Shown here one piece after another: positions 16,832-60,050 of a DNA stretch of 64,000 nucleotides. The notes beneath the pieces are model-generated. The model was not told where the DNA came from and searched no databases. It saw nothing but the letters and a program-made list of their open reading frames with translations. Within the stretch, counting starts at the first letter, position 1; every line of letters begins with the position of its first letter. The position numbers were made by a program, and so were the translations under genes. This stretch comes from a virus (Duplodnaviria; Caudoviricetes), in IMG/VR virus record IMGVR_UViG_2599185359_000001, positions 46,779-110,778 of that record; one strand, given 5' to 3'.

Positions 16832-16851
16832 ATGTGTGTCAGTTACCACAC
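16832..16851 (+). promoter_or_regulatory. Operator motif copy 6
   Basis: ATGTGTGTCAGTTACCACAC. Confidence 0.72.
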
Positions 16852-24721: not shown

Positions 24722-24741
24722 GTGTGCGTTCTTGCACACAC
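24722..24741 (+). promoter_or_regulatory. Operator motif copy 12 (phoH)
   Basis: GTGTGCGTTCTTGCACACAC. Confidence 0.68.
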
Positions 24742-26857: not shown

Positions 26858-29800
26858 CTACCTCTTCACTTCTTCTGCCATGAGCTGGACATAGCTGACG
26901 TCGAAAAACGCCGCGGCCGAGGTCGAGTTTGTTTTCGTCACCTCAAACTCGAGCCACATCGTCGTTGTGCCCGGCAGCGGTGCGGTGAGTGCCCAGAACG
27001 TGTATGGGGTGCGCTTGTAGGGATCGACAGGGATGGTCCTGCTGATGGGGAACACCTCGCCATTGGACTGCCTGAGCATGAGCCTGGCGTTGCAGCCGCC
27101 GGTCCCCTGCGTATCCTGGGAAAGGATTGCCTCGAACTGGGCATCGACCCGCATGCGGCCGCCAGTGTACCCGAAGGTGATGGCTTCCGAGTTAGTTCTC
27201 GTCACCGTGAACTGGGGGCCGCTCGCCGTGGCGCGGAACCCGAGTTGCACTGTGCTCACAGCGTTCGAGATCGAGCTATTGGCCATCGCTCGCGTATTGA
27301 CGGACCCGGTGACGAACAAGTCCCCGCTGATCAACACGTCACCGACGATGTCGACGCCAGCGCGACCGTTCGCATCCGCGCGGATCATCAGCTGAGCGCG
27401 GTTATTCCCCGCAACCGCAACGACTTCCCAGAAGGCAGCGGTGCGACCGTTCAGGTTCGAAACCGCGCTCTCCGTAGTGGTGACGCGCGCGGTCAGGTTG
27501 CCGGTGCTGTCGAGCGCCTTCTTACCCTTTATTTCGCCGTCCGTAGCCGGTCGAACGACGCACCGGTGCCAGTAGGTGTCGCTCGAAGACCCATCAAACC
27601 CGAAGGCCTCCCAGCCGCCCATTGCATGAAGCGACAAATTGGTCTGCGCGGAATTGTAGACCAGAACACTCCAGGTTCGACGATTATACCCAGGACCTGA
27701 ATACGTAAAATCGTTGATGTCGGGTGTATTACCAAAGCCAATTTTATAATTCTCGCGGTACCAGAAGTCGATGTAAATTCCCGACCCCTGCCAATTGCCC
27801 TCGAACTGCTCAACCTCTGCCTCGATGACATACCAGCCCGCGGGGATATTTTCGAGATCCTGCTTCAGGCCGATGTTACTGTTACCGACGCGGTGCATGT
27901 AGACTGGCACCGTACCATTGCGCCCGGGGTTTGTGGTCGACGGAGTAACGGTCGACCCGTTACCTCCTCCCCACGGGTTCCAGCCTGTTGGAGCAGAGCC
28001 GGTGAAAGGTGCAGTGAACCGCGCGTTTTTGTTCATTGCGATATCAGACGACGCTTCAATGACGGCGGTTCGCGACGCCAAGGCGCCGGTGTCGCTGACG
28101 CGCGCCGTTTCTTCGGACTGGATCCTCGCCAGCAGCTGGCTGCCCTGCGAGCCGTCGAGCTGCGCCTCCGTTTTGGTGATCCGGTCGCCCAACGCGCTGT
28201 CCTGCGCGGCCCTGGTCGTCTCTTCGGTCACGATGCGAGCAATCGCCTGGCTGGAGACCTCCAACGCGCGCCCTGCCTTCACTTCCGCATCGCTCGCGAC
28301 ACGGATGGAGCAGCGGTGCCAGGTTAGGTCCTTATCGTCAGACCCGAACCCAGTATAGTTGGTCATCAGGTGGAAGTTGCCGTCAGCGTCGGCATCCTTG
28401 TGAACCAGCAGGCTCCAACGGCGGTTGCCGAGTTGAGTGGCGCTGGCGACATCCGCGTTGTCGGGTGCCGTGTCGAAGGTCAGGTTCCAACGGCCGGAGA
28501 TAGACACGCCGGCGCCCCGCCAGCTGCCGCTGTTCAGATCAACATCCGCTTCGATGACATACCAGCCCGCACCCTTGAGGGTCGCGAGGGACTGATACAC
28601 GCCGGAATTGATGTTGCCGGAGGACGTCTGTCGCAAAGCCCAGGTCTGCGATACGCGATCTTCGGTTACCCGGGAGATCGTATGCACGTCGCCCCAGAAC
28701 TGCCACCCTGTCGGAATTTCCTGGCCATCAGGCCAGATCTCGAAGAATGCGTTGGCGTTCAGCGCGCCAGTAGCCGCGCCATTAGACGACTCCACCACGC
28801 TTACCCGATTTGCCAAGGCATCGTCGGCCGTCGCGCGCGCGGTCTCTTCAATGATGATGCGTGCCTTCAGCGCGCTGTCCTGATCGCCCTTGAGCTGAGC
28901 TTCAGTGGTCGAAAGCCGATCGCTCAGCGCCACGTTGTCGCGCGCGCGGACAAGCGCCTCGTCGGTCACCGCAGCTTCGGCCCGGTCTGCGATGGTCTTG
29001 GCGCTGACGATGGAGGTCGTGAGCGTACCCTCGGCACCCTTGGCCCGTTCGACCTCCGCGGTCAGGTCGCTCCGCACCTTCTCCGCCTCGGCGCGCGCGG
29101 CGTCGACAGCCTGGTCGATCTCTGCCTTCACCTTCAGGAACTGATCGCGCGCGGCAACGACGTTACCCGTCGCGTCCTTGACGGCGTCGGCGATGTCTTC
29201 TGCCGGCACGCCGCCGACGCTCGTTCCCGGCGGGGCGCCGACCGTCGCATTGTTGGCGGGCTTGCCTGGTCCGTTCACACCGTCCCAGTCAGCGAGCTTG
29301 GAGGCTCGATCGATGATTGCGGCGTCGAGATCCGCCTGCGCCGCATTCATGGTGGCGAACGCGGCCTGAAATTCCGCGGGCTCCACGGGGGTGTCTTGCG
29401 TGAAGTCGTTCCACTTGGGCTCGAGCCCAGCGAGGTACGCGCGCAGCGCGACGTTCGCGCCGTTGGCCGCGTCGATGTAGGTGTCCACGCCGCCGAGCTG
29501 GAGCGCCTTTGCGCGCGAGGCGTTTAATGAAGCGGTCAGCTGGTTGTAGAGCAGCAGCACCTGCGGCTTCTCTGCGCGCGACAGTACCCGGTCGCTCGTG
29601 ACGCCCAGTAGGTCGAGAATGACCTGGCTGGCGTCTACGCCGTGGATGGTGCCTGTGATGTCGCCATTGAACGAGATCTTGTCGACCGGGCGGTAGCGCA
29701 GCGTTTGCGCAGCCATCCAGTCAGAGAAGATGAAGCCGCCCGGCGCGACATCGTCATCTACCTTGCGGTAGCCGCGGACCTTGAAGCTGTAGAACTTGTC

Positions 29801-29875
29801 GGCGGCCACCCCAGGCAGGATGATCGAGCGCTTGCTCGAGGGTACGAAAACAGAAGTCTCGGGGAGCGTCGTCAT
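26858..29875 (-). CDS. Tail fibre / receptor-binding protein
   Basis: KPANNATVGA motif, coiled-coil repeats (EETARA..D.AL..R), two homologous CBM-like modules; follows tail tip gene. Confidence 0.75.
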   Translation of the reverse strand: MTTLPETSVFVPSSKRSIILPGVAADKFYSFKVRGYRKVDDDVAPGGFIFSDWMAAQTLRYRPVDKISFNGDITGTIHGVDASQVILDLLGVTSDRVLSRAEKPQVLLLYNQLTASLNASRAKALQLGGVDTYIDAANGANVALRAYLAGLEPKWNDFTQDTPVEPAEFQAAFATMNAAQADLDAAIIDRASKLADWDGVNGPGKPANNATVGAPPGTSVGGVPAEDIADAVKDATGNVVAARDQFLKVKAEIDQAVDAARAEAEKVRSDLTAEVERAKGAEGTLTTSIVSAKTIADRAEAAVTDEALVRARDNVALSDRLSTTEAQLKGDQDSALKARIIIEETARATADDALANRVSVVESSNGAATGALNANAFFEIWPDGQEIPTGWQFWGDVHTISRVTEDRVSQTWALRQTSSGNINSGVYQSLATLKGAGWYVIEADVDLNSGSWRGAGVSISGRWNLTFDTAPDNADVASATQLGNRRWSLLVHKDADADGNFHLMTNYTGFGSDDKDLTWHRCSIRVASDAEVKAGRALEVSSQAIARIVTEETTRAAQDSALGDRITKTEAQLDGSQGSQLLARIQSEETARVSDTGALASRTAVIEASSDIAMNKNARFTAPFTGSAPTGWNPWGGGNGSTVTPSTTNPGRNGTVPVYMHRVGNSNIGLKQDLENIPAGWYVIEAEVEQFEGNWQGSGIYIDFWYRENYKIGFGNTPDINDFTYSGPGYNRRTWSVLVYNSAQTNLSLHAMGGWEAFGFDGSSSDTYWHRCVVRPATDGEIKGKKALDSTGNLTARVTTTESAVSNLNGRTAAFWEVVAVAGNNRAQLMIRADANGRAGVDIVGDVLISGDLFVTGSVNTRAMANSSISNAVSTVQLGFRATASGPQFTVTRTNSEAITFGYTGGRMRVDAQFEAILSQDTQGTGGCNARLMLRQSNGEVFPISRTIPVDPYKRTPYTFWALTAPLPGTTTMWLEFEVTKTNSTSAAAFFDVSYVQLMAEEVKR

Positions 29876-29881
29876 GCGGGG

Positions 29882-29910
29882 AGTATATACGTGTGTCGTC
29901 ACACACGCAA
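29882..29910 (-). promoter_or_regulatory. sigma70 promoter, leaderless, for tail fibre
   Basis: TTGCGT-N17-TATACT then 6 nt to ATG 29875; operator fills the spacer. Confidence 0.65.
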
Positions 29911-29935
29911 TAAAGGCGTGCGCGACAACACACTG
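29889..29935. promoter_or_regulatory. Operator motif copies 15 and 16 (inverted pair)
   Basis: ACGTGTGTCGTCACACACGC (+) and CAGTGTGTTGTCGCGCACGC (-). Confidence 0.7.
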
Positions 29936-32900
29936 TTAGGCGGTTTCTGCGCTCCAAGCCACCTCGAAGCCATCGATCGAAGCGTCCTTGCCCTTCCACT
30001 CCCACTCGAAGCTGATGTCGGCGGAGCCATCGCTGTTGATGACATGCTCGACATCGCCGGCGGACGTAATCGGCGCCATGATTGCGCTCCCGTCCCGGTT
30101 GTTGCCTTTGGTCGGATCGGTCGGCGCGTACGGACTCACGGCGATAGAGAACTTCTTCTCCACCCACTCGGAAAGGCTCGAATCACTGGTGGAACGGACC
30201 TGAGCCACATAATTCCCCGTGTCGAGGCCCGAGATCGTGAGCGACCGCTCGACGTGCTCGCCAAGACTGGTCCAGGTCTGCGCGGTCGCGCGCCGATAAC
30301 GCGCCTCGTAGGCTTGGACCCCGGTCATATCGGCTGGCTCATCCCACGCCATCTCAGCGACGCCAACGACAGCAAAGTTCGTCGGCGTCACCGCGACGTT
30401 TCGAGGACCGTCCAGCGCGGCATAGAGAACTGCCACCGTCCCCTTCACAGAGGGCGCGGACGCGAATGGAGCGCGATCGCCGCGGGTGTTATAGGCCACC
30501 ACCTTGAACTCGGGCACATCGCCCTCATTCACCGCGACCATCAACTCGTTCGAGTTCACCGCAGAACCGGCCGAGCGGAAGGCTGAGCCGTTAATGCTGA
30601 CGTAGACGTCGGCGCCCGCATAATTGCGAATGTTGATCGGGTTCCAGTGCACGCGCGCCGTGATGGTTTTGCGATTGGCTGCGACCAGGCGCTCGTAGTC
30701 GAACAGGAGCATTGAGACATGCGGGACCTGACGGTCGGTGACCACCGTCACCGGGATCGGGATCTCGACTTCAGCCGGCCCATAGACGCCTTCGTGATAT
30801 TCGACGAAGGTCAGTCGGCGCTTCTCGATGCCCGACCCGCTGATCCCGGTGAGGGTGTATGGCTTCCGAACCTGCTCGATCTTGCCAAAGATGAAGTTCG
30901 CCCCCTCGGCGGGCGCTTGTGGGAGATCGGCGACGAGCTCGACCACATTGGTCTCAGCCGGGCCGCTCGTGGTGACGTCATACTGCAGGACGACGTCCGT
31001 CGCCCACAGGTTCACCTGCGTGCCTGGGAACATCAGCGGCGGCTTCACGGCCAACGTGATCGTGTGATAGGGATTTCCGTCCCGAAGCTGCACGATCTCG
31101 TAGTCCTGGCCGTCCATGATGAGACGCTTGGCCTTGGTCGCCTCGACACTATCGCCGGTCACCAGAAGCTTCTGCCCTACGATGCTGTAGATCGCGTTCT
31201 GGCCGGTGTGGATGGCGTCGAAGTGGACGATGGTCGAGTAGCGGGCACCTGCCTCGATCTGCACGTTCTGGTCGAGCACGAGCTTCCGCGTTGTGCTGCC
31301 CGCGAACAGACGGCCGCTGTTCGCCCAGGCCATCATGTCGTGCTGGATCAGCGCGACGTCGCCCAGCAGCACGTTGATGGAGTCCATGGCCGTGTCGAAC
31401 GTCAGCGTGCGGATCAGCAGCCGGTTCTGGTAGATGGCGCGCCACAGCTCCTTCGTGGCCTGGGTCACGTTGTCGATGCCGGGGAACGACACCTGCGCCA
31501 CGCGCGAGATCTCGTTGAAGGTCACCGCCTTGGGGTCGACGTACCGGATCGTCTTCTGCTTGTTGCGGTCGTTGCGGTCGTAATAGGTGATCTCGTATTC
31601 GTTCGACCGGTCGGCCATGGACATGTAGCTCAGCTCGAGCGAACCCTTGAGGATGTTCGCCTGAGTAAAGCTGGCGACCGGCTCGCGTGGCTTATCGACT
31701 GCGACGCTGATCTTGGTGCCGAATGGGATGGGTGCTGCGTGGCCGATCCGCCAGACCGCGCGCAGCGCATCGCTGAGATTTGAGTTGGTGTCGAACACGC
31801 CGTTGAAGGTGATATTGTTCGCCGCGCAGTATTCAGCGAACTCAATGATCCGCGGCCAGTCGATGCGCCTGGTCGGAACGCCGGCGCCTCGCTCGATGCC
31901 GGCCAGGATGTCGACACCGCACCACGCGGGGTTGTTCGTCCACGCCTTCTCGGTCGGATTGCCCTCGATGTCATAGAGCTGAACGCGACTGCCCTTCACG
32001 CGCGCGGTGACGGTCGGGATGGCGCTCAGCTGCTCGTTGAGCTTGATCTTCAAGGCCAGGTATGCGGTGCCGCGCATCGCCACTGGATCCACCGTGATCT
32101 CCGCGACGTCGGTCAGATAAACCTCGTCCAGCTTGTACTGATCGGTGGAGGTGGCGTTCGTTCGCCGGATGCGGGTCTGATAGAAGCCATGCGCCAGCTG
32201 CGCGGACTCGAAGGAGCGGCGGATCTGGCGAGTGCGGCTGTCGGTGACCGTTTGTGAGAACGTGGCTACGCTGGGGTATGCCACAAGCCGCGTGATCTGT
32301 GCGCCCGGCGCCGCTCGCACCTCGTAGTCGCCACGCGGCAGCGCGACGTCATACTGGCCGGAGACGTAGGGCGTGATGTCGGTGTCGCCGGCAATGCTGC
32401 CGTCCCCACTGGCGTCGAAGATGTACCCGGGCGAAGCGACGGCGTTCAAGGGCACGGTGACCCACTCGTCGGTCCCGGCCTTGCGATACTGGACGGCGCC
32501 GGTGCTCTGCGAAACCTCCGAGGTCTTGGTTTGCGAGTGGGCGATGAAGCGCAGGATGTCCTTCAGCTGCACGCCATCGCGGTCGATGTCGATATAGTCG
32601 TAGGAGCCGTTCTGCCACTCGACCGGCTGGTAGTTGCCCAGCGGCTCGCGAGTAACCGGATCGACCTGCCGCGCCTCCATCTGGAAGGTGACAGAGCGAT
32701 TGCTATAATCGCCCTTCTTGCTGTCGATGTTCACCAGGCCCTGCGAGAAGGCCACATCCCATCGGATCTTGTCGACCGCGGAGGTGGTATAGTGCTCGAC
32801 CCAACCCGTATCGATCTTCTGGGACTTGTTGCTCTGGACCGTCGAGCCGTCAAACCAGGGGTGCGCCGCCTCATTCAGCGTGCCCTTGCTCACATAGTAT

Positions 32901-33559
32901 TCGACGTCCGTGAACGAGCTGATCGGCTGCTCATTGAGCTCGATGCCTTCCACGCTCTCCACTTCCCCGTCGTTGAGCACGACGCGCATGTAGAGGTACT
33001 GATCGTCCCCCACATTCTTAGTGAAGCAGTCGGCCAGGTTGCCCGCCGTGCGGAACTCGCCGTAGATGACAGGGTAGGGGATGTTCTCCGTTGCGGAGTT
33101 CTTCGCGCCGTCGATGCCGTAGGATCGGCTGTCGTCGTTATCCGCCTTTTTCGGAGCCTTGGGCGCCAGTAGGAACGCGCTGGCCAGGCCGAGGCCGATC
33201 GCGATGCCGATCGATGCGATCTGGCCGATACCGGGGATGAACTGGACGGCGATCATCGCGACCTGCATCAGCACGCGCAGCACCGACTTGAACCCGTCGC
33301 CGCCCTGGGGGACGAGCACGAGACCCAACTGGTCGCCGCGTGAGAGCTTGTGGCCGAGTTTGTCGGCCGGCTGGATCTCCTCCCCATTGAGGAAGACCAT
33401 CCACTCGCACTCTTCGGGCAGGCCTTCGAGATAGTCGGAAAGCGTCGCAGACTTGCGCCAGGCAAGCTCGTGCTTCTCGACGGTCTCGGGCTCGAAGGCG
33501 TTGTAGAGCACGCTGAGGTGCACGACGTTCTTCTGGCGCGGCGGCTTAACCATAGACAT
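29936..33559 (-). CDS. Tail tip / host-specificity protein (lambda I+J-like fusion)
   Basis: N-terminal ubiquitin-like domain (LVPQGG), PYPVIYGE, WTNNPAW, FNGVFD, FN3 domains. Confidence 0.85.
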   Translation of the reverse strand: MSMVKPPRQKNVVHLSVLYNAFEPETVEKHELAWRKSATLSDYLEGLPEECEWMVFLNGEEIQPADKLGHKLSRGDQLGLVLVPQGGDGFKSVLRVLMQVAMIAVQFIPGIGQIASIGIAIGLGLASAFLLAPKAPKKADNDDSRSYGIDGAKNSATENIPYPVIYGEFRTAGNLADCFTKNVGDDQYLYMRVVLNDGEVESVEGIELNEQPISSFTDVEYYVSKGTLNEAAHPWFDGSTVQSNKSQKIDTGWVEHYTTSAVDKIRWDVAFSQGLVNIDSKKGDYSNRSVTFQMEARQVDPVTREPLGNYQPVEWQNGSYDYIDIDRDGVQLKDILRFIAHSQTKTSEVSQSTGAVQYRKAGTDEWVTVPLNAVASPGYIFDASGDGSIAGDTDITPYVSGQYDVALPRGDYEVRAAPGAQITRLVAYPSVATFSQTVTDSRTRQIRRSFESAQLAHGFYQTRIRRTNATSTDQYKLDEVYLTDVAEITVDPVAMRGTAYLALKIKLNEQLSAIPTVTARVKGSRVQLYDIEGNPTEKAWTNNPAWCGVDILAGIERGAGVPTRRIDWPRIIEFAEYCAANNITFNGVFDTNSNLSDALRAVWRIGHAAPIPFGTKISVAVDKPREPVASFTQANILKGSLELSYMSMADRSNEYEITYYDRNDRNKQKTIRYVDPKAVTFNEISRVAQVSFPGIDNVTQATKELWRAIYQNRLLIRTLTFDTAMDSINVLLGDVALIQHDMMAWANSGRLFAGSTTRKLVLDQNVQIEAGARYSTIVHFDAIHTGQNAIYSIVGQKLLVTGDSVEATKAKRLIMDGQDYEIVQLRDGNPYHTITLAVKPPLMFPGTQVNLWATDVVLQYDVTTSGPAETNVVELVADLPQAPAEGANFIFGKIEQVRKPYTLTGISGSGIEKRRLTFVEYHEGVYGPAEVEIPIPVTVVTDRQVPHVSMLLFDYERLVAANRKTITARVHWNPINIRNYAGADVYVSINGSAFRSAGSAVNSNELMVAVNEGDVPEFKVVAYNTRGDRAPFASAPSVKGTVAVLYAALDGPRNVAVTPTNFAVVGVAEMAWDEPADMTGVQAYEARYRRATAQTWTSLGEHVERSLTISGLDTGNYVAQVRSTSDSSLSEWVEKKFSIAVSPYAPTDPTKGNNRDGSAIMAPITSAGDVEHVINSDGSADISFEWEWKGKDASIDGFEVAWSAETA

Positions 33560-34610: not shown

Positions 34611-34970
34611 CTATACCTCAGTCATCTTGATGGTGATGTCCCACATGCGATTGCGGCCGACACCCACATACTTCGTCTTCACCTCGTCGAACCGAACCTG
34701 GTGAAAGGTTCCATGCAGATAGTCGAAGTAGGTGAACGGAAGGCTTCGTGTGTGTGCGGCTTCGAACGCCATTATGGTCTGATAATCGGCGTGAGGCAAT
34801 GCGATAAATCCGGTCGTGAACGTGATCCGCCGCGCGCGGGTGAACCGCGGACGACGGAACTCGTAACCGCCTTCGGTGTCGCTCTTGACGGTGTTATCCT
34901 CCAGGACACGATCGAAGAGCGACGGGCTCTCGCCGCGCGAAAGGACCGGTTGGGTAGGGAACTGCGCCAT
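34611..34970 (-). CDS. Distal tail protein (lambda M-like)
   Basis: Follows tape measure; EGGYEFRRPRFTR, VRF, C-terminal TEV. Confidence 0.7.
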   Translation of the reverse strand: MAQFPTQPVLSRGESPSLFDRVLEDNTVKSDTEGGYEFRRPRFTRARRITFTTGFIALPHADYQTIMAFEAAHTRSLPFTYFDYLHGTFHQVRFDEVKTKYVGVGRNRMWDITIKMTEV

Positions 34971-37900
34971 TACTGCCTCACTGCCGCGACCGCGTTGCGC
35001 AGCCGCCCATCTTTGCCCATGGCCTCCAGGACCACATCGACGATCATGTCCCGGCCGTTGAACCGGGTGTCACCCTGTTCAGCGTCGACTTCATGGCCGC
35101 TGTTGTTGATGACGTTGACCTCGACCTTCGCCGGGTGGCCGCCGCCGTAGCCCGTCTTGCCGAGGAGCCGCTGCTGCTCGCGGGTCAGCACCACCTCGTC
35201 GTCCAGGCCGATCATCGGAACCTCACCCGACTTCAGCTGACGGCCGCCGATCCAGCCGCCGCCGTGATACTTCTTGGCGTTGGCGAACACGTCAGCAGGG
35301 ACGTGTGCGCTTGCCGACGCGGCGCCGATGACGCCGCCAGTGTGTGCGGTGCCCACCAGAACGCTGCCGATGCCACCCAGAACGCCCTTCAGGGGGCCGC
35401 CGAGCGGGATGCCGTTGCCGATGCCCGGACCCATATCGAACGTGGGCTGGTCGCCAGGCATGATGTTGCTCCCGCCCGAACCGTAGCCGATCTGTGCGCC
35501 CGAGTTGACCTTGCCGGTCGTAGAGAAGCCGCCGCCGAGCTGCCCCTTCAGGAACGTGCCCATCGACACCTTCTCGCCGGCAGCATTGTTCGCCATGCCG
35601 ATTGCCGACAGGATCGAGTATGCGATCATCGCCTGGAGGATCACCTGCAGGATCTTCTTCAGGATGTCGCCAACCAGGTCGCCGAAGTTGGTGTTCGCCT
35701 CCGTCATGCCCTGGACGATTGAACCGAGCGCCTGGGCCATGGACTGCTGGATGCCCTGGCCGAGGCTCGCCCACTGGCGCGCCTGCTGGATGAGCGCACC
35801 TTCGGCCGCGCGCTCGTTGCGCGCTTCAGCTGCGGCCTTCCACGACAGAAAAGCCTGCTCGGCGCGCTGCTTCTCCGCCGCGCTCATTTGGGCGTTGTTG
35901 CGCACCGCCTCAAGCAGGACCTGCTGACGCGTCATCTCACGGCTGAAGTTCGCCTCGCGCTGCTGGTCCTCGTTCATGAGGCTGATGCGAATCTCTTCGG
36001 CGGTATCCTCCCAGCCCTTGACGGTGTGCGCGGCATCAGCGCGCTCGATTGCCGCCACGATCTCGTCGATCTTCTGCTTGGCGTTCTCGAGTTCTTGGCC
36101 CGAGAGCCCGATCAGCTTGTCAGCGAAACGCGAGCGGATCTGCGCCAGCCGTTGGTCGGCCTCCATCGTCCCGCGGTTGAACGAGGTCCAGAACTCGTTG
36201 CCCTCGGTGGTAGCCTGCGCGAGATCGCCAGCGAGGCCGTCCATGACCTTCTTCACGTCCTGTTGCTTGGCCGTATCGTCGATCGCCGAGGCCATGTCGC
36301 GCAGCTGCTGGATCTGCTGCGGGGTGAGGCCGAGATGGTCTGGGCTCGCTGCCAGCTGCGCATTGAACTTTGCAAGCTCGCCCTTGCCGTCCGTGAGACG
36401 GTCGTTGAGCTGCGCCAGGCGGCCGGCCATGGAAACGATGCGGCTTTCGAAGGCGTCCTCCTGGGCATTCGCCTTGCGCGCATGAGCGAGCGCGTCCGTC
36501 GCCGTGGCAGCGCGGCGGATGCGGCTGATCTGCTCTTCGGTGGCACCGGCGTACTTGCCGCCGGCCAGCTCTGCGTTGAACTTGGCCAGGGCCGGACCGC
36601 TGCCGTTCATGCGCGCGGCCGCGGCCGCAGCTGCACCGTCAGCGGAAACAGCGGCGCGCTCCCACTTCGAAAGACCCTTGGCGCCGTTGCCGGCCAACTG
36701 ACCCAAGGCCTGGGCGCCCTGAGCGACCTTCGCCTGGCCCTCTTGGACCAGCTCACGAGCCTTGTTGACGGTCGCGATCAGCGGGTCCAGCTCCCACTGC
36801 GCCTTACCCGACGAGCGCGCTCGCGCCAGGTCGGTTCGGGCCTTGGCCAGCGTCTGCTGGTCCATCGCGAGCTTCGCTCGGTCAAACGCGGCGGTTCGCG
36901 CCTGCATCTTGGCGAGGGCGCCCTTGTCGCCCTTTTCCAGATCGGCCTGCAGCTTGTCCATGTCTTGGCCGTACTGCTCGCCCATGCGATTCAGGACGTT
37001 GGTGCGGTTCGAGATCAGGCCGTCCCACCGCTTGTTGGACTCGTCCATCGCCAGCTGCGGCTGCGACTGCTTGATCTGACCCGCAAGCTTCGCGTCTTCA
37101 GCCTGAAGCTCAGCGCGGCGCTTGGCGCGCGCGTCGTTCCCGCGCACGTTGAGGCCCGTATCCCACCAGTGCTCGCCCTTCTCGACGGAGATCCCGAGGA
37201 GGGGGTTCTGGGCCTCGTTCTCCTTCATCTCGCGCGCGATGCGCTCACGCCGGGCAACCAGGGTCTGCATGTCGGATAGATTGCCCAAACCCTGGCGCAG
37301 TCGCTCAGCGGCGGCAGCGGCACGATCTGCCTGCGTCTCAAAGACGCCGGCCGCCTGGGCGGCCTGATAGAGGGCGACGCCAATCATCACCGCCGGGTGG
37401 AGGGCGAGAGTCATGGCGCCCTGCAGCGCGCGGGTAGCACCGCTGGCGAGCGTGGCTGCCGTGGCCATGGCACGCTTGCCGAGGGTGTTTGCGGTCTCGG
37501 CAAGCGTCAGGCGCTCGGTTGCAGCCGTCTCGGCAGCCATGGCTGCGGCCAGCTGAAGCTCCAGCTGGATCTGCTTTTCCTTCTGCACGAGAATGGCGAA
37601 GCCGCTGCGCTGGGCAGTCTGCGATGCAGCATTGGTGCCCGCGGTAGCGAAGCCCTCGCGCTCGATAGCCGCGGCCAGCTCGGCTTCGACCGCGACCAGG
37701 CGCTGCTTGAGCGAGATCTCCTGCGCCGTCTGGGCGCGACGCTGGGACGCTTGGGTCGCCACCTCAGCCTCAACCTGCATCAGCGCCTGCTCAGCGAGCG
37801 TGCGCGCCCTCACCGCCTGGGTAAGCTCCGCCTCGACGACTGCCTGCTGGCGAACGAGCGTGCCCAGTTGGCGCGAGCGGTCAGCTCGAGTGAGGGAGCT

Positions 37901-39550
37901 GTTGTTCGCAACCGCGTCCGCCTGTGCGCGCGCAACATTGACGCGCTCGATCGCCGCGATCTCTTCCGCGGCGGCGAGCTGCGCTTGCGCGCGGGCCTGC
38001 TGGATCGCCGGGTTATTGCCGATGTTCTTCAAGGCTGCGGCGTTGGCCTTCTCCGTAGCAGCGTCCAGCTGCACCTGAAGCGCGGTAACGCGGTTCCGTG
38101 CATCGCTGACGGCCTTGGCTGCCGAAGAAGCGGCGGCACGGTCTGCAGCCGTAGCCACCGCCTGATTTGCGGCCTTCAGCTCGGACAGTGCGGCGATCTC
38201 GGCGCGGATCTTCCCGATCTGACGTTCACGCTCCGCGGTGGTGGTGCGGATCGCGTTGATCATCGTTCGTTCTTGCTCGGCGACCGCGCGGTTGCGAGCC
38301 ACCTCCATCCCCATGCGGTTGCGCTCCAGGACCCACAGGTTCTGGGTGGTGACGTTGCCGCGGAGCACCTGACCATAGGCGGCGGCCTCGGTGCGGGCTG
38401 CGGCAATGGAAACACTGAGGGCGCGGAGGGACGCGACGGCTTCCTGTGCGCCGGTCAAGATCCAGGCACCAAAGCGCTTCGCGGTCAGCGCGGCGATACC
38501 GATCGCGATGGCCTTGATGCCGGCGCCGATCTCATTGCGGAACTCTACGGCGACCCGGATCGCGCCCGCGATCGAGGAGGCGATCGAATTGACGGCGCCG
38601 CCGAGACCTGCAGCGAGCTGACGCCCCTCGGACCCTTTGAGCAGGTCGTTCAGATCCTTCAGGCCCTTGACGCTGGTCGCAAACAGGCCGCCCTTTTCGT
38701 CCAGCCCGGTGAAAGCCGTCGAAAGGGACATGATGTTGGTGCGGAGCTCGGCCAGCTGGCCGGTCATCGTCGCCGCGAGCTTGCCGCCAGCGCCCGTATA
38801 GACGCGCTGCATTTCCGCGAACATCAGCGCCAGAGCGGGGCCGGCGCGCACGGTGCCGGTCGCAACCTCCTTGGACAGCTGTGCGACCGTCTTGCCCATC
38901 GAGCGAGCCATCAGGCTCATAGCGTTCGGGACGGCCTCACCCAGCTGCTGCCGGAGCTCTTCCATCGACACGACACCCTTGCCCGCCATCTGTTGGATGG
39001 CGATCGAGGCGCGGTGCATGGTATCGGAGGTGCCGCCGAACGAAGCCACCGCGTCAGCGAGAGCCTGGAGCGAGCCGTCCCGCGGATCGAGCTTCGCTGA
39101 GCGGAACTTCACGAACGCGTCGGTCAGATCGTCGACCGCGAAGCCGGTCTTTCGGGCCATGTCGAACAGCTCGGAGAGGTTCTCCTTGGCCTCGGTGGCC
39201 TTCCCCAGCGCCGTCGTCTGGTTCGACAGGCCCTTCATCAGCACGGTCAGGCGTTCGACTTTGGCCGACTGCTGCAGCAATGCGCCGACCCAGCCCACGG
39301 CGAGGTCGCGCACATTGAGGAGCGCGAGGCGCATGTTGCCGAGGATCAGAACGTAGTCGCGCAGCTTCTGCAGCGGCGTCGACATCGCGCTGCCCGCGCG
39401 GTCAAAGGTGTCGGTGAATTTGCGGACGGAGGATGACGACTTGTCGACGTTGCCGCCGAAGGTGCGCATCTGCGCGCCGGCCTGAGCCAGGCGACCTGAA
39501 TACCGACCGGTATCAAGATCCAGAACTAGACTAAGCCGGCGCGTTGCCAC
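34970..39550 (-). CDS. Tail tape measure protein
   Basis: 1526 aa, Ala-rich helical; QMAGKGVVSMEELRQQLGEAVP; C-terminal HTGG/YHGGG..GEVP. Confidence 0.92.
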   Translation of the reverse strand: MATRRLSLVLDLDTGRYSGRLAQAGAQMRTFGGNVDKSSSSVRKFTDTFDRAGSAMSTPLQKLRDYVLILGNMRLALLNVRDLAVGWVGALLQQSAKVERLTVLMKGLSNQTTALGKATEAKENLSELFDMARKTGFAVDDLTDAFVKFRSAKLDPRDGSLQALADAVASFGGTSDTMHRASIAIQQMAGKGVVSMEELRQQLGEAVPNAMSLMARSMGKTVAQLSKEVATGTVRAGPALALMFAEMQRVYTGAGGKLAATMTGQLAELRTNIMSLSTAFTGLDEKGGLFATSVKGLKDLNDLLKGSEGRQLAAGLGGAVNSIASSIAGAIRVAVEFRNEIGAGIKAIAIGIAALTAKRFGAWILTGAQEAVASLRALSVSIAAARTEAAAYGQVLRGNVTTQNLWVLERNRMGMEVARNRAVAEQERTMINAIRTTTAERERQIGKIRAEIAALSELKAANQAVATAADRAAASSAAKAVSDARNRVTALQVQLDAATEKANAAALKNIGNNPAIQQARAQAQLAAAEEIAAIERVNVARAQADAVANNSSLTRADRSRQLGTLVRQQAVVEAELTQAVRARTLAEQALMQVEAEVATQASQRRAQTAQEISLKQRLVAVEAELAAAIEREGFATAGTNAASQTAQRSGFAILVQKEKQIQLELQLAAAMAAETAATERLTLAETANTLGKRAMATAATLASGATRALQGAMTLALHPAVMIGVALYQAAQAAGVFETQADRAAAAAERLRQGLGNLSDMQTLVARRERIAREMKENEAQNPLLGISVEKGEHWWDTGLNVRGNDARAKRRAELQAEDAKLAGQIKQSQPQLAMDESNKRWDGLISNRTNVLNRMGEQYGQDMDKLQADLEKGDKGALAKMQARTAAFDRAKLAMDQQTLAKARTDLARARSSGKAQWELDPLIATVNKARELVQEGQAKVAQGAQALGQLAGNGAKGLSKWERAAVSADGAAAAAAARMNGSGPALAKFNAELAGGKYAGATEEQISRIRRAATATDALAHARKANAQEDAFESRIVSMAGRLAQLNDRLTDGKGELAKFNAQLAASPDHLGLTPQQIQQLRDMASAIDDTAKQQDVKKVMDGLAGDLAQATTEGNEFWTSFNRGTMEADQRLAQIRSRFADKLIGLSGQELENAKQKIDEIVAAIERADAAHTVKGWEDTAEEIRISLMNEDQQREANFSREMTRQQVLLEAVRNNAQMSAAEKQRAEQAFLSWKAAAEARNERAAEGALIQQARQWASLGQGIQQSMAQALGSIVQGMTEANTNFGDLVGDILKKILQVILQAMIAYSILSAIGMANNAAGEKVSMGTFLKGQLGGGFSTTGKVNSGAQIGYGSGGSNIMPGDQPTFDMGPGIGNGIPLGGPLKGVLGGIGSVLVGTAHTGGVIGAASASAHVPADVFANAKKYHGGGWIGGRQLKSGEVPMIGLDDEVVLTREQQRLLGKTGYGGGHPAKVEVNVINNSGHEVDAEQGDTRFNGRDMIVDVVLEAMGKDGRLRNAVAAVRQ

Positions 39551-40888: not shown

Positions 40889-40908
40889 GTGTGTGTCACT
40901 TGCCACAC
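40889..40908 (+). promoter_or_regulatory. Operator motif copy 19 (major tail promoter)
   Basis: GTGTGTGTCACTTGCCACAC; upstream of TG-g-TATGAT on minus strand. Confidence 0.72.
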
Positions 40909-44282: not shown

Positions 44283-44304
44283 GTGTGTGCCACATCGCAC
44301 ACAC
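44283..44304 (+). promoter_or_regulatory. Operator motif copy 20
   Basis: GTGTGTGCCACATCGCACACAC. Confidence 0.7.
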
Positions 44305-45250: not shown

Positions 45251-45279
45251 ATCATACCAAATGCCGACTGTGTGTGCAA
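45251..45279 (-). promoter_or_regulatory. sigma70 promoter of major capsid gene
   Basis: TTGCAC-N17-TATGAT with extended TG; -35 at the centre of a perfect 16-bp inverted repeat. Confidence 0.7.
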
Positions 45280-45295
45280 GCACACACAGTCGGCA
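45262..45295. repeat. Operator motif copy 21 inside perfect 16-bp inverted repeat
   Basis: TGCCGACTGTGTGTGC-AA-GCACACACAGTCGGCA. Confidence 0.8.
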
Positions 45296-46092: not shown

Positions 46093-46112
46093 GTGTGTAC
46101 CATAACACACAT
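46093..46112 (-). promoter_or_regulatory. Operator motif copy 22 (scaffold)
   Basis: ATGTGTGTTATGGTACACAC on minus strand; TTCCAA-N17-TATGGT. Confidence 0.7.
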
Positions 46113-50417: not shown

Positions 50418-52054
50418 TTATTCAATTCCTTCTCCTTGTCGGGCGCCTTCACGGACCCTTGATTGTTTTCGCCCTGGCTGTTTCGCTTGCCGGGGACGCG
50501 GCCCTTTCCGAGGGTTGGCTGGGCAGAGAGTGCAGACGCGGCATCGATCACGGGCTCTTCGAGCCAGTCGTTCTCGATGTCGTCTTGGATCTCCTTGAGA
50601 TCTGCTTCCGAAGCTTGCGGGAACATCTTCTCGGACAGCCGCGCCATCTGCTTGCGGCGGAGCTTCTTCGGAGCGTTCATCACGGAGAGACGCTGCGCAT
50701 TGTCCATTTCGTCGGCGAGGTTGCGCACGTCGAATGTCTGCGGGTAGCTGACGAGCTCCTCGGTATCCTGGAGCTCCTCGACATCGCCGGACCAGGCGTT
50801 CACCAGGCGCACCAGGTTGTGCTCGACGTTCTGAAGCGACCGCGCCTTCGCGGCGAGCATCGCGTTGATCTTCTCGAAATCGTAGGCCTTGGCGACGCCG
50901 CTGGAATTGTCGATGCCGGTGGCGTTGTCTTCCTTCGTCCGTTCGCCGGCCATGCCGATCGAGTGATAGATCTCGCCGACGATCTTGGTGACGGCCTTGA
51001 GGATCAGCTCGGGCTGGCTGACGTCAGGCGAGATGTACGTGGGGGCGGCGCCACCCTCGGCGTTGTAGCCGAACACGCGCTTGGTCCCCATGACCTGCAT
51101 GTTCGACATCTGATCCTGGTCGATATCGCTGTCGTCACCGGCGCCGCCCTCGGTGGGCAGCATGCCCTGAAACGGGATTGCCAGCTGCGAGAAGGTCTGA
51201 TCCGTGACGATCACGTCGAGACAGGACAGGTAATTCGCGACCGTCCGGTCCATATAGGCAACGTCTTCGACCAGCCCGTCGACCTTGTAGAGCTCGTCCG
51301 AGGTGATGTGGTCGGCGGGGAAGATCGGGACGATGCCCAGGCCGTGCTCACGCACGGACGCCAGATCGAGCTCTGCGGTGCGCTCACGCCCCTTCTTCGC
51401 GACCTTGATGACCGCGGTGAAATCCTTGGTCCAAAGCCGGAACTGCTCGGTCACATCGCCGGAGGAGGTGAGGGGGTTCGCGTCGTCGCGCGCGAACTCG
51501 CCGTTCATGAACCATTCGAGCTCGCCGTCTTCATCGAAGGCGTAGTCGTAGGCCTGCATCGGCTTGATGAAGTATGCGTAGATGCGCCCCTTGGCGGCCT
51601 TGCGGTCAGCTTCGGTGACGACATCTGCGGGGATCGAATTGTCGACCACGACCCAGAGCCGACCGAAGGTGCTCGACCACTTCGCGATCGATTCCATCAG
51701 GTCGCAGATGGGGCGCTTCAGCAGCGTGGCTGCGCCCCAGAACTCCTTGACCGCCGGCGGCAGCTCTTCGCTCCGCGCGATCGCGCCCTTGAAGACGTAC
51801 TTGTTGACGAGGCCGACGACCTCCTTGGAGTGCGGGAAGCGATATGCGCGCTTCTTGCGCTCCGCGAACTCCTTGCGGCCCTCCTTTGGGTAGGTGAAGA
51901 GGTTCTTCTCGATCCACGAGCGGCCGCCGCGGTAGCACGCTTCCAGGAAACGCCAGTGGTCGAGGTTTTCCTTGAACTCGGGGTGCCGGCGATCGATCAG
52001 CTTCAAGAGCTGCTCGGACGATGCTGCTTTCAGCGCGGAGAGATCGACAGACAT
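50414..52054 (-). CDS. Portal protein
   Basis: Follows TerL; HGLGIVP, SSGVAKAYDF, YPQTFD; leaderless ATG at 52054. Confidence 0.85.
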   Translation of the reverse strand: MSVDLSALKAASSEQLLKLIDRRHPEFKENLDHWRFLEACYRGGRSWIEKNLFTYPKEGRKEFAERKKRAYRFPHSKEVVGLVNKYVFKGAIARSEELPPAVKEFWGAATLLKRPICDLMESIAKWSSTFGRLWVVVDNSIPADVVTEADRKAAKGRIYAYFIKPMQAYDYAFDEDGELEWFMNGEFARDDANPLTSSGDVTEQFRLWTKDFTAVIKVAKKGRERTAELDLASVREHGLGIVPIFPADHITSDELYKVDGLVEDVAYMDRTVANYLSCLDVIVTDQTFSQLAIPFQGMLPTEGGAGDDSDIDQDQMSNMQVMGTKRVFGYNAEGGAAPTYISPDVSQPELILKAVTKIVGEIYHSIGMAGERTKEDNATGIDNSSGVAKAYDFEKINAMLAAKARSLQNVEHNLVRLVNAWSGDVEELQDTEELVSYPQTFDVRNLADEMDNAQRLSVMNAPKKLRRKQMARLSEKMFPQASEADLKEIQDDIENDWLEEPVIDAASALSAQPTLGKGRVPGKRNSQGENNQGSVKAPDKEKELNK

Positions 52055-52060
52055 CGCGCC

Positions 52061-52089
52061 AGTATATCTGAAACTGTGTGTGTTGTCAC
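52061..52089 (-). promoter_or_regulatory. sigma70 promoter, leaderless, for portal
   Basis: GTGACA-N17-TATACT then 6 nt to ATG; operator over -35. Confidence 0.62.
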
Positions 52090-52095
52090 CCACAC
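52076..52095 (+). promoter_or_regulatory. Operator motif copy 23 (portal)
   Basis: GTGTGTGTTGTCACCCACAC. Confidence 0.75.
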
Positions 52096-53985: not shown

Positions 53986-54005
53986 ATGTGTGTTAGAATA
54001 CACAC
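53986..54005 (+). promoter_or_regulatory. Operator motif copy 24 (terminase)
   Basis: ATGTGTGTTAGAATACACAC. Confidence 0.75.
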
Positions 54006-60030: not shown

Positions 60031-60050
60031 GTGTGTGTTGCTACACACAC
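60031..60050 (+). promoter_or_regulatory. Operator motif copy 29 (near-perfect dyad)
   Basis: GTGTGTGTTGCTACACACAC inside TTGCTC-N17-TACACA. Confidence 0.75.

What the first reader, a model, noticed from the sequence alone, without database searches (positions are those of the whole stretch)
29800..30060. Tail tip and tail fibre are in frame and split inside an FN3-like domain by a stop, a promoter and two operators
Seen: J ends ...SADISFEWEWKGKDASIDGFEVAWSAETA-TAA. The same frame stays open for 20 codons to the fibre ATG, which begins MTTLPETSVFVPSSKRSIILPGVAADKFYSFKVRGYR. These read as the first and last strands of one FN3 fold. The 60-bp spacer holds an inverted operator pair and a leaderless TTGCGT-N17-TATACT promoter. 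Inference: a once-fused gene was split so that the receptor-binding fibre is expressed separately and docks by beta-strand complementation, allowing modular swapping. Stop read-through giving a fusion of about 2230 aa is an alternative.
Basis: partly seen in the sequence, partly recalled or inferred. Interest (0 to 1): 0.7.

Follow-up and report, generated by a model that had tools for sequence, protein, structure and literature searches.

The report
Tail fibre docked by split FN3 domain
In a prophage of a Sphingomonas-like bacterium, and in a whole clade of related phages, one small fibronectin-type domain is encoded half at the end of the tail-tip gene and half at the start of the tail-fibre gene, so the fibre most likely plugs onto the tail by rebuilding that domain from two proteins.

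Summary
On the minus strand, J (29936-33559, 1207 aa) ends in the first half of Pfam DUF7359. The next gene, the fibre (ATG 29875, 1005 aa), begins with the second half. Each half passes Pfam's cut-off, and read through they give one domain (67.6 bits). A model of the joined segment is a single FN3 fold (Z 10-10.8): strands A-B-C come from J and C'-E-F-G from the fibre. J's half modelled alone does not fold.

This is not a one-off. Seventeen J homologues (43-59% identity) stop at the same place. Six loci carry a gene starting with the second half immediately downstream. About 21 clusters of fibres (359-2665 aa) start that way. More distant J proteins carry the domain uninterrupted and form a sister clade, so an ancestral fused gene is likely.

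All six spacers keep a -35-like hexamer and a near-consensus -10 hexamer 6-7 nt before the start codon, with no Shine-Dalgarno. They also keep a GTGTG...CACAC palindrome, which occurs at 10 sites in this window (0.55 expected).

The shared reading frame is incidental: five of six relatives are out of frame or have stops in the spacer. Read-through is rejected.

Docking by domain reconstitution is inferred, not shown. An overlapping window of this same genome was flagged before; it is not other DNA.

The parts
29936..33559 (-). J-like tail tip / central fibre gene, 1207 aa (P0001), stop TAA at 29936-29938
   Evidence: phrog_31 'central tail fiber J' E 5e-106; Pfam FNIII-A_GpJ and Phage-tail_3; translation
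30158..30421 (-). Complete FN3 domain of J (about aa 1047-1134), just before the half-domain
   Evidence: Weak Pfam fn3 hit at aa 1069-1132. Modelled at pLDDT 94-97 as a seven-strand sandwich in the J-alone model
29939..30103 (-). First half of DUF7359 / FN3 (strands A, B, C; J aa 1153-1207)
   Evidence: Pfam profile 6-59, E 1.4e-7. My own profile, positions 4-60. Strands VEHVI, ADISFEW and GFEVAWSAE in the joined model. Eleven invariant residues in this stretch across 17 homologues
29876..29935 (-). 60-nt spacer between the J stop and the fibre start; open and in frame here only
   Evidence: Relatives have spacers of 41-66 nt in other frames or with stops
29918..29933 (-). Weak hairpin GTGTGTTGTCGCGCAC followed by GCCTTTATTG (terminator-like; possibly a degenerate second palindrome)
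   Evidence: Listed by the terminator scan, but the class is not above chance. A similar hairpin+TTTATT lies at the same place in L015
29882..29910 (-). Promoter-like element: TTGCGT (29910-29905), 17 nt, TATACT (29887-29882), then 6 nt to the ATG; no Shine-Dalgarno
   Evidence: The same layout is conserved in L003, L005, L012, L015 and L022. The same -10/N6/ATG layout also occurs at 52054 and 33929
29891..29906 (.). Palindrome GTGTGTGACGACACAC overlapping the promoter spacer (operator-like)
   Evidence: One of 10 sites of GTGTG-N2-12-CACAC in the window, 0.55 expected. Equivalent palindromes occur in all six split loci
26858..29875 (-). Tail fibre gene, 1005 aa (P0002), ATG at 29875-29873
   Evidence: phrog_37064 'tail fiber protein' E 3.4e-7. 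Eighteen homologous fibres start within a few residues of the same point
29726..29860 (-). Second half of DUF7359 / FN3 (strands C', E, F, G; fibre aa 6-50)
   Evidence: Pfam profile 78-122, E 1.5e-7. My own profile, positions 61-143. Strands ETSVFVP, SIILPGVA, FYSFKVRGYRK and FIF in the joined model
29156..29875 (-). Conserved N-terminal anchor region of the fibre (about aa 1-240); relatives diverge beyond it
   Evidence: 53% identity to P0011 over aa 1-240, then only scattered modules match. Invariant columns occur only up to aa 169

Best explanation
An ancestral J-fibre gene was split inside the C-C' loop of an FN3-type domain (Pfam DUF7359), and the split has been kept throughout a clade of lambda-like siphophages of sphingomonads. 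J now ends with strands A-B-C. The separately made fibre begins with strands C'-E-F-G. The two polypeptides most likely rebuild one beta-sandwich non-covalently, which fastens the fibre to the end of the J central fibre.

The fibre gene has its own sigma-70-type promoter. Its -10 hexamer lies 6-7 nt before the start codon, so the mRNA would be leaderless. The promoter is overlapped by a palindrome of the family that sits at many other promoters of this phage, so the fibre would be a separately regulated transcription unit.

Shown here: the split, its conservation, the fused relatives, the FN3 fold of the joined model, and the conserved spacer architecture. Inferred: physical reconstitution, the transcription start site, and regulator binding.
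For: 1. Two halves of one family. Each half exceeds Pfam's cut-off, with complementary profile ranges of 6-59 and 78-122. Joined, they give 67.6 bits.

2. Conservation. Seventeen J homologues of 1210-1244 aa all end 5-11 residues after IDGFE. In 6 of 6 split loci with downstream DNA (the window, L003, L005, L012, L015, L022), the next gene begins with the second half. About 21 clusters at 50% identity start with it.

3. Both halves are the most conserved parts of their proteins. This shows in the invariant residues. Their scores against my own domain profile sum to 110-131 bits, against 143-187 bits for intact domains.

4. Fused relatives. P0012, P0044, P0045, L009-L011 and others carry the intact domain. 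They form a clade with 100% support, sister to the 30-row clade (100% support) that holds all split forms.

5. Fold. The joined model has pLDDT 90-97 across both halves. Whole solved FN3 domains (1ten 89 of 89 residues, Tencon 94 of 94) align over model residues 28-166 at Z 10-10.8, rmsd 1.6-2.4 A. All of the top 50 Foldseek hits are FN3.

6. J alone. The neighbouring complete FN3 is modelled at pLDDT 94-97. The half-domain scores 48-76 and strand C does not form.

7. Spacers. All six keep a -35-like hexamer, 17-18 nt, then TATACT, TATAAT (three times), TATTAT or GATAAT, then 6-7 nt to the start. None has a GGAG, although other genes of the phage do. A palindrome is present in all six and is enriched in the window, 10 sites against 0.55 expected.
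Against:
- The joined model was built with an alignment of fused homologues, which biases it towards the intact fold. The J-alone control used a different alignment.
- P0021 and P0028 carry the first half followed directly by an unrelated domain of about 140 aa, with no second half in the same chain. The first half may therefore not always need a partner, or it may receive one in trans. Their loci could not be fetched.
- The window's promoter matches only 8 of 12 consensus positions and was not called by the scan.
- No RNA data exist for it.
- L005 and P0098 would start a leaderless mRNA with GTG, which is unusual for leaderless messages (general knowledge).
Confidence: 0.62

Rival explanations
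1. The split is real and conserved, but the halves do not rebuild one domain. J's A-B-C remnant would be a flexible or differently folded tail. The fibre's conserved N-terminal region of about 170-240 aa would attach by another interface, for example by wrapping J or binding the preceding complete FN3, as complete FN3 domains contact each other in T5 pb3/pb4.
For: P0021 and P0028 have the first half followed directly by an unrelated domain. The conserved fibre anchor is much longer than the half-domain. In T5 the tip-to-fibre joint is made by loops between complete FN3 domains (PMC10038345). The model supporting reconstitution leans on fused homologues.
Against: FN3 core residues stay invariant in both halves across sequences that are otherwise 43-59% identical (J) or about 30-40% identical (fibres). 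That is hard to explain if neither half folds as FN3. An A-B-C fragment cannot form a closed sandwich alone, and it was modelled at pLDDT 48-76. In 6 of 6 loci both halves occur together.
Confidence: 0.22
2. Translational recoding (stop-codon read-through, frameshifting or ribosome bypass of the spacer) makes a fusion protein of about 2230 aa, at least part of the time.
For: In this window only, the 60-nt spacer is in frame and free of stops. In the model, the 21 extra residues sit in a surface loop of the domain without disturbing it.
Against: Frame offsets in the six split loci are 0, 2, 2, 1, 0, 2. L003 and L012 have in-frame stops a few codons after the J stop, and the other in-frame case, L015, has a TGA inside its spacer. 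The stop codons differ (TAA, TAG, TGA). No take-off and landing codons match across the loci, by my inspection of the sequences. What is conserved is a -10 hexamer at a fixed distance from the start codon, which is a transcription signal and not a recoding signal.
Confidence: 0.03
3. The stop is a recent inactivating mutation or an assembly error in a fused gene.
For: Fused homologues exist.
Against: The same break occurs in 17 J proteins and six loci from independent metagenomes and genomes. About 40-55 nt of non-coding insert replace only 2-5 codons. The source run's contig matches the window with no differences at depth 139.
Confidence: 0.01

Closest known systems
Phage T5 central fibre: BHP pb3 C-terminus joined to pb4 N-terminus (PMC10038345)
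   Same: A lambda/T5-type tail tip protein ends in FN3 domains, and the next protein continues the FN3 string. In T5 there are five consecutive FN3 domains: two on pb3 and three on pb4. The polypeptide break therefore lies within an FN3 string of the central fibre.
   Different: In T5 the break lies between complete domains, and contact is made by loops of the two neighbouring FN3 domains. Here the break lies inside one domain, in the C-C' loop, so neither protein has a complete copy.
Fused J-fibre proteins with intact DUF7359 (P0012, P0044, P0045, L009-L011; tandem arrays in P0004, P0054)
   Same: They share the same J body (34-36% identity), the same domain family and the same following motif (F.GD.TGTI). 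They are the likely ancestral state.
   Different: They are a single polypeptide, with no stop, spacer or promoter. In the split forms about 40-55 nt of regulatory DNA replace the S-S-A-Y-T-x-G stretch of the C-C' loop.
Insulin / IGF-1 receptor FnIII-2 domain, made of alpha and beta chains
   Same: This is an FN3 domain built from two polypeptides. The insert domain carries the furin site that separates the alpha and beta chains (PMC7039211). Receptor chains spanning residues 592-808 align with the joined model at Z 9.9-10. From memory, the insert is in the C-C' loop, the same loop as here.
   Different: There the split is made by proteolysis after the domain has folded as one chain, and disulfides help hold the chains. 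Here the halves are translated from two genes and must find each other.
Donor-strand complementation in chaperone-usher pili (general knowledge)
   Same: An incomplete Ig-like sandwich is completed by a strand from the next subunit, giving very stable non-covalent joints between structural proteins.
   Different: In pili one strand is donated, with a chaperone and strand exchange. Here four of the seven strands would come from the partner, and no chaperone is known.
Operator/'stoperator' networks of temperate phages
   Same: A short repeated site occurs at many promoters across the prophage, including the J/fibre spacer.
   Different: I tested only the palindrome's enrichment and positions. 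The binding protein, and whether it represses or activates, are unknown.

Membership tests
Pfam DUF7359 (PF24058) | Score above the gathering cut-off (27.5 bits) | tested here: met
   J half 31.7 bits and fibre half 31.7 bits. The joined match is 67.6 bits over profile 6-122, with one TAA inside
Pfam DUF7359 (PF24058) | Whole domain within one polypeptide | tested here: not met
   Profile 6-59 lies in J and 78-122 in the fibre, separated by a stop and 60 nt. It is a split member, not a standard one
Fibronectin type III fold | Seven-strand beta-sandwich that superposes on solved FN3 domains | tested here: met
   Shown on a predicted model of the joined halves: Z 10-10.8, rmsd 1.6-2.4 A, with whole FN3 chains aligned over model residues 28-166. 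The top 50 Foldseek hits are all FN3. Pfam fn3 itself does not hit this domain
Lambda J-type tip attachment / central fibre protein | Homology to the J body, and position after the tape measure and minor tail genes | tested here: met
   phrog_31 E 5e-106, plus PF24801 and PF13550. Tape measure at 34970-39550 and minor tail proteins upstream
Leaderless sigma-70 transcription unit | -10 hexamer 6-7 nt before the start codon, a -35-like hexamer at 16-18 nt, and no Shine-Dalgarno | tested here: met
   Present in 6 of 6 split loci. In the window the match is 8 of 12 positions
Leaderless sigma-70 transcription unit | Transcript 5' end at the start codon | not testable with these tools
   No RNA run is listed for this DNA
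Programmed stop-codon read-through | Downstream frame conserved and open in relatives | tested here: not met
   Offsets are 0, 2, 2, 1, 0, 2, with stops in the spacers of L003, L012 and L015
T4 gene 60-type translational bypass | Matching take-off and landing codons flanking the gap | tested here: not met
   Inspection of the six junctions finds no shared matching codon pair
Protein fragment complementation (two chains rebuild one domain) | Physical association of the two halves into one fold | not testable with these tools
The only support is indirect single-chain modelling

The most novel reading that the evidence does not exclude
A naturally split FN3 domain serves as a self-assembling plug and socket between the tail tip and exchangeable receptor-binding fibres. 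It is kept for a long evolutionary time in a phage clade, and it is coupled to a leaderless, operator-controlled promoter that arose inside the former coding sequence. In the window the -10 hexamer (TATACT) reads Tyr-Thr in the fibre frame, where fused relatives have a conserved Tyr-Thr. In L012 and L022 the -10 hexamer (TATAAT) keeps only the Tyr, reading Tyr-Asn. This would be a new way of attaching phage fibres and a ready-made handle for swapping them.
Probability: 0.5. Interest if true: 0.78.

Novelty: new variant of a known kind. Interest (0 to 1): 0.66.

Why it matters
How fibres are fastened to siphophage tail tips is known for only a few phages. The known joints use complete domains, collars or helix bundles (T5, lambda, F-pyocins). 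A joint made by rebuilding one FN3 domain from two proteins would be a new attachment principle.

It is directly testable with two short peptides of 80-90 residues each. It would also be useful: the 50-residue N-terminal half-domain could serve as a portable tag for loading foreign receptor-binding fibres onto these tails in laboratory phage-host work.

The case is also a clean natural example of gene fission inside a domain, with both fused and split states still living. It suggests that a promoter can be born within a former coding loop.

Tried and rejected
  - Phage GenBank blastn of the two genes: only a 240-nt weak hit in Pseudomonas phages.
  - DUF7359 in 400 genomes of the host's family: one further genome, with a fused domain.
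  - Domain-alignment scan of IMG/VR: only five loci.
  - Scans for P0021 and P0028 loci: only known relatives.
- **Literature.** No paper holds 'DUF7359'. None combines tail fiber with strand complementation or with gene fission.
- **Sequencing runs.** No RNA holder is listed. The contigs that were laid confirm the assembly, but the second run does not bridge the spacer.
- **Motif counts.** A simple count of GTGTG words is not enriched (96 found, 137 expected); only the palindromic arrangement is. A count of -10/N6-7/start layouts is not above my rough expectation. The three hits matter only because all three share the upstream GTGAC..ACACAC motif.
- **Ideas considered and dropped.** Intron or intein: the spacer is only 41-66 nt. 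Invertase (shufflon-type) switch: no matching inverted copies flank the fibre.


Full report
**What is there.** The finding lies on the minus strand of a lambda-like tail module. The gene order is tape measure (34970-39550), minor tail proteins, J, fibre, two small ORFs, then endolysin. The window is part of contig 16 of a 4.77-Mb genome. The closest named relatives of the J gene sit in a Sphingomonas MAG and a Novosphingobium genome.

J (33559-29939, 1207 aa) ends ...IDGFEVAWSAETA-TAA. Twenty sense codons follow in the same frame, then the ATG at 29875 that opens a 1005-aa fibre gene.

**Two halves of one domain.** Pfam DUF7359 (123 positions) hits J aa 1153-1201 on profile positions 6-59. 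It hits fibre aa 6-50 on positions 78-122. Each hit scores 31.7 bits against a cut-off of 27.5. A six-frame search that reads through stops finds a single match over positions 6-122 at 67.6 bits, with one TAA inside.

I modelled the joined segment (J 1130-1207, the stop read as Q, the spacer, fibre 1-90) with an alignment of 28 fused homologues. It folds at pLDDT 90-97 over both halves. Strands A (VEHVI), B (ADISFEW) and C (GFEVAWSAE) come from J. Strands C' (ETSVFVP), E (SIILPGVA), F (FYSFKVRGYRK) and G come from the fibre.

- All of the top 50 Foldseek matches are FN3 domains.
- With VIA-align, whole solved FN3 domains align over model residues 28-166, which covers both halves. Examples are tenascin 1ten (89 of 89 residues) and Tencon (94 of 94). 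The scores are Z 10-10.8 with rmsd 1.6-2.4 A.
- The break therefore lies in the C-C' loop.
- As a control, J's last 168 residues were modelled alone with 18 split homologues. The preceding complete FN3 scored pLDDT 94-97. The half-domain scored only 48-76, with a lone A-B hairpin and no C strand.
- These models are indirect evidence. The first leans on fused homologues, and the two-chain predictor was closed.

**The split is a conserved architecture.** A search with J's C-terminal 500 residues found 17 full-length homologues at 43-59% identity and 1210-1244 aa. All of them end 5-11 residues after the IDGFE motif.

With an alignment of these proteins I fetched loci from IMG/VR, metagenomes and genomes. 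I scanned their six frames with a domain profile built from fused copies. Six loci are split in the same place: the window, L003 (same contig as L021), L005, L012, L015 and L022. In each, J holds profile positions 3-60, and the very next gene begins with positions from 59-73 through 143.

A full-library search with the fibre's first 140 residues gave 377 hits. Among the best 150, about 21 clusters at 50% identity start with the second half (M..P.ETS..V.P.KRS..LPG.AAD.FY.F.VR.YR). Their lengths range from 359 to 2665 aa.

Both halves are the best-conserved parts of their proteins. Fibres stay alike for about 170-240 residues and then diverge. Distal parts are therefore exchanged behind a constant anchor.

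**Fused relatives.** Uninterrupted versions exist:
- P0012 (1737 aa), P0044 and P0045.
- The J proteins of L009-L011 (34-36% identity to the window's J).
- Proteins with tandem arrays, such as P0004 and P0054.

In a quick maximum-likelihood tree of the J body, the fused forms are one clade (support 100). It is sister to a 30-row clade (support 100) that holds all 19 split forms. Interspersed in that clade are nine J proteins whose C-terminus has been replaced and lacks the domain, and two (P0021, P0028) in which the first half runs straight into an unrelated domain of about 140 aa.

This pattern fits one ancient fission followed by C-terminal replacements. The tree is a quick one, is rooted only at the midpoint, and recombination could distort it.

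Aligned to fused domains, J stops at about the S-S-S stretch of the C-C' loop, and the fibre resumes at T-P-x-E-T. Only 2-5 codons are lost, and 41-66 nt of non-coding DNA are gained.

In the window the -10 hexamer (TATACT) reads Tyr-Thr in the fibre frame, where fused proteins have a conserved Tyr-Thr. In L012 and L022 the hexamer is TATAAT and reads Tyr-Asn, so only the Tyr is kept. The -10 box may therefore descend from those codons. This is a suggestion only.

**The spacer.** All six spacers share the same layout:
- a -35-like hexamer (TTGCGT, TTGTGT, TTGCAT, GTGACA, TAGATA or GTGCGT);
- 17-18 nt;
- a near-consensus -10 (TATACT, TATAAT three times, TATTAT, GATAAT);
- 6-7 nt;
- the start codon.

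None has a GGAG-type ribosome site, although other genes of this phage do. This is the geometry of a promoter for a leaderless mRNA.

Each spacer also holds a palindrome of the type (T)GC(A/G)TGTGT...ACACA(C/T)GCA. In the window, GTGTG-N2-12-CACAC occurs at ten intergenic sites against 0.55 expected. Several of these overlap promoter-like elements, and the distance to the -10 varies. That behaviour fits an operator better than a fixed promoter part.

Two further genes (starts at 52054 and 33929) have the same -10/N6/ATG layout with the same upstream motif. My palindrome count agrees with it, but I did not reproduce its 22-base word.

The second, upstream inverted repeat (29933-29918, followed by TTTATT) is shared only with L015 and looks like a weak terminator.

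**Rejected readings.**
- Read-through. Frame offsets are 0, 2, 2, 1, 0, 2, and the other in-frame case (L015) has a stop in its spacer. The window's open in-frame spacer is therefore incidental.
- Ribosome bypass. There are no matching take-off and landing codons.
- Pseudogene or assembly error. This is excluded by conservation and by the source contig matching without differences.

**Open point.** P0021 and P0028 show the first half without a second half in the same chain. Whether a fibre with the second half follows them could not be checked. This is the main reason I keep 0.22 on the rival that the halves do not co-fold.

**Comparison.**
- The nearest solved system is T5. There, pb3 ends with two FN3 domains and pb4 starts with three, but the break lies between complete domains and contact is made by loops (PMC10038345).
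- F-pyocin and lambda side fibres attach by OB rings and helix bundles (PMC13455828).
- The insulin receptor's FnIII-2 is an FN3 made of two chains after furin cleavage in its insert (PMC7039211). It aligns with the model at Z about 10, but it folds as one chain first.
- I found no paper on DUF7359 or on a split-domain fibre joint.

**Verdict.**
Gene fission inside an FN3 domain with its own promoter holds. Read-through does not, and the shared frame has no meaning.
- Docking by domain reconstitution is the best explanation (0.62) and awaits a binding or structural test.
- I class it as a new variant of a known kind, with interest 0.66.

Noticed in passing
window 16834-16851, 24722-24741, 40889-40908, 44283-44304, 45270-45287, 46093-46110, 52076-52095, 53988-54005, 60031-60050: Nine further GTGTG-N2-12-CACAC palindromes lie in intergenic positions, several of them overlapping promoter-like elements. 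Together with the junction site this makes 10 sites against 0.55 expected. They are probably binding sites for one phage regulator.
   Followed up: partly
window 52054 and 33929 (minus strand): Two more genes have a -10-like hexamer exactly 6 nt before their ATG, no Shine-Dalgarno, and a GTGAC..ACACAC motif upstream. They are candidate leaderless transcription units inside the structural region.
   Followed up: partly
window 33000-33559 (J aa 17-175): J's N-terminus matches ThiS/ubiquitin-like (PF02597, E 5.5e-4, below cut-off) and phrog_32 'tail assembly protein', followed by a hydrophobic stretch. This suggests a lambda gpI-like module fused to the front of J.
   Followed up: no
P0021 (aa 1233 on) and P0028 (aa 1353 on): These are J homologues in which strands A-B-C of the split domain run straight into an unrelated C-terminal domain of about 140 aa (NGDFSNGTTGW... 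type), with no second half in the chain. It is unexplained whether a fibre still docks there.
   Followed up: partly
P0054 (4005 aa), P0055 (6067 aa), P0004 (2454 aa): Giant phage proteins carry 7-17 tandem DUF7359 units. The unit runs from NxNDR to F.GD.TGTI and behaves as a repeatable fibre-shaft module.
   Followed up: no
window 34973-39550: The tape measure protein also matches an 'endolysin' phrog (phrog_1768, E 1.4e-57) over aa 23-425. It possibly carries a cell-wall-degrading domain.
   Followed up: no
window 28800-31000: A 2025 root metagenome run (X2) holds about half of the sampled words of this stretch, with contigs 90-99% alike on either side of the spacer. A close relative of this prophage therefore lives in a root community.
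   Followed up: partly
window 26858-29155 (fibre aa 240-1005): The fibre has a coiled-coil-like stretch and two similar modules (aa about 371-552 and 620-800, GWYVIEAEV... type). These modules recur in P0011, which suggests duplicated carbohydrate-binding-like domains.
   Followed up: no
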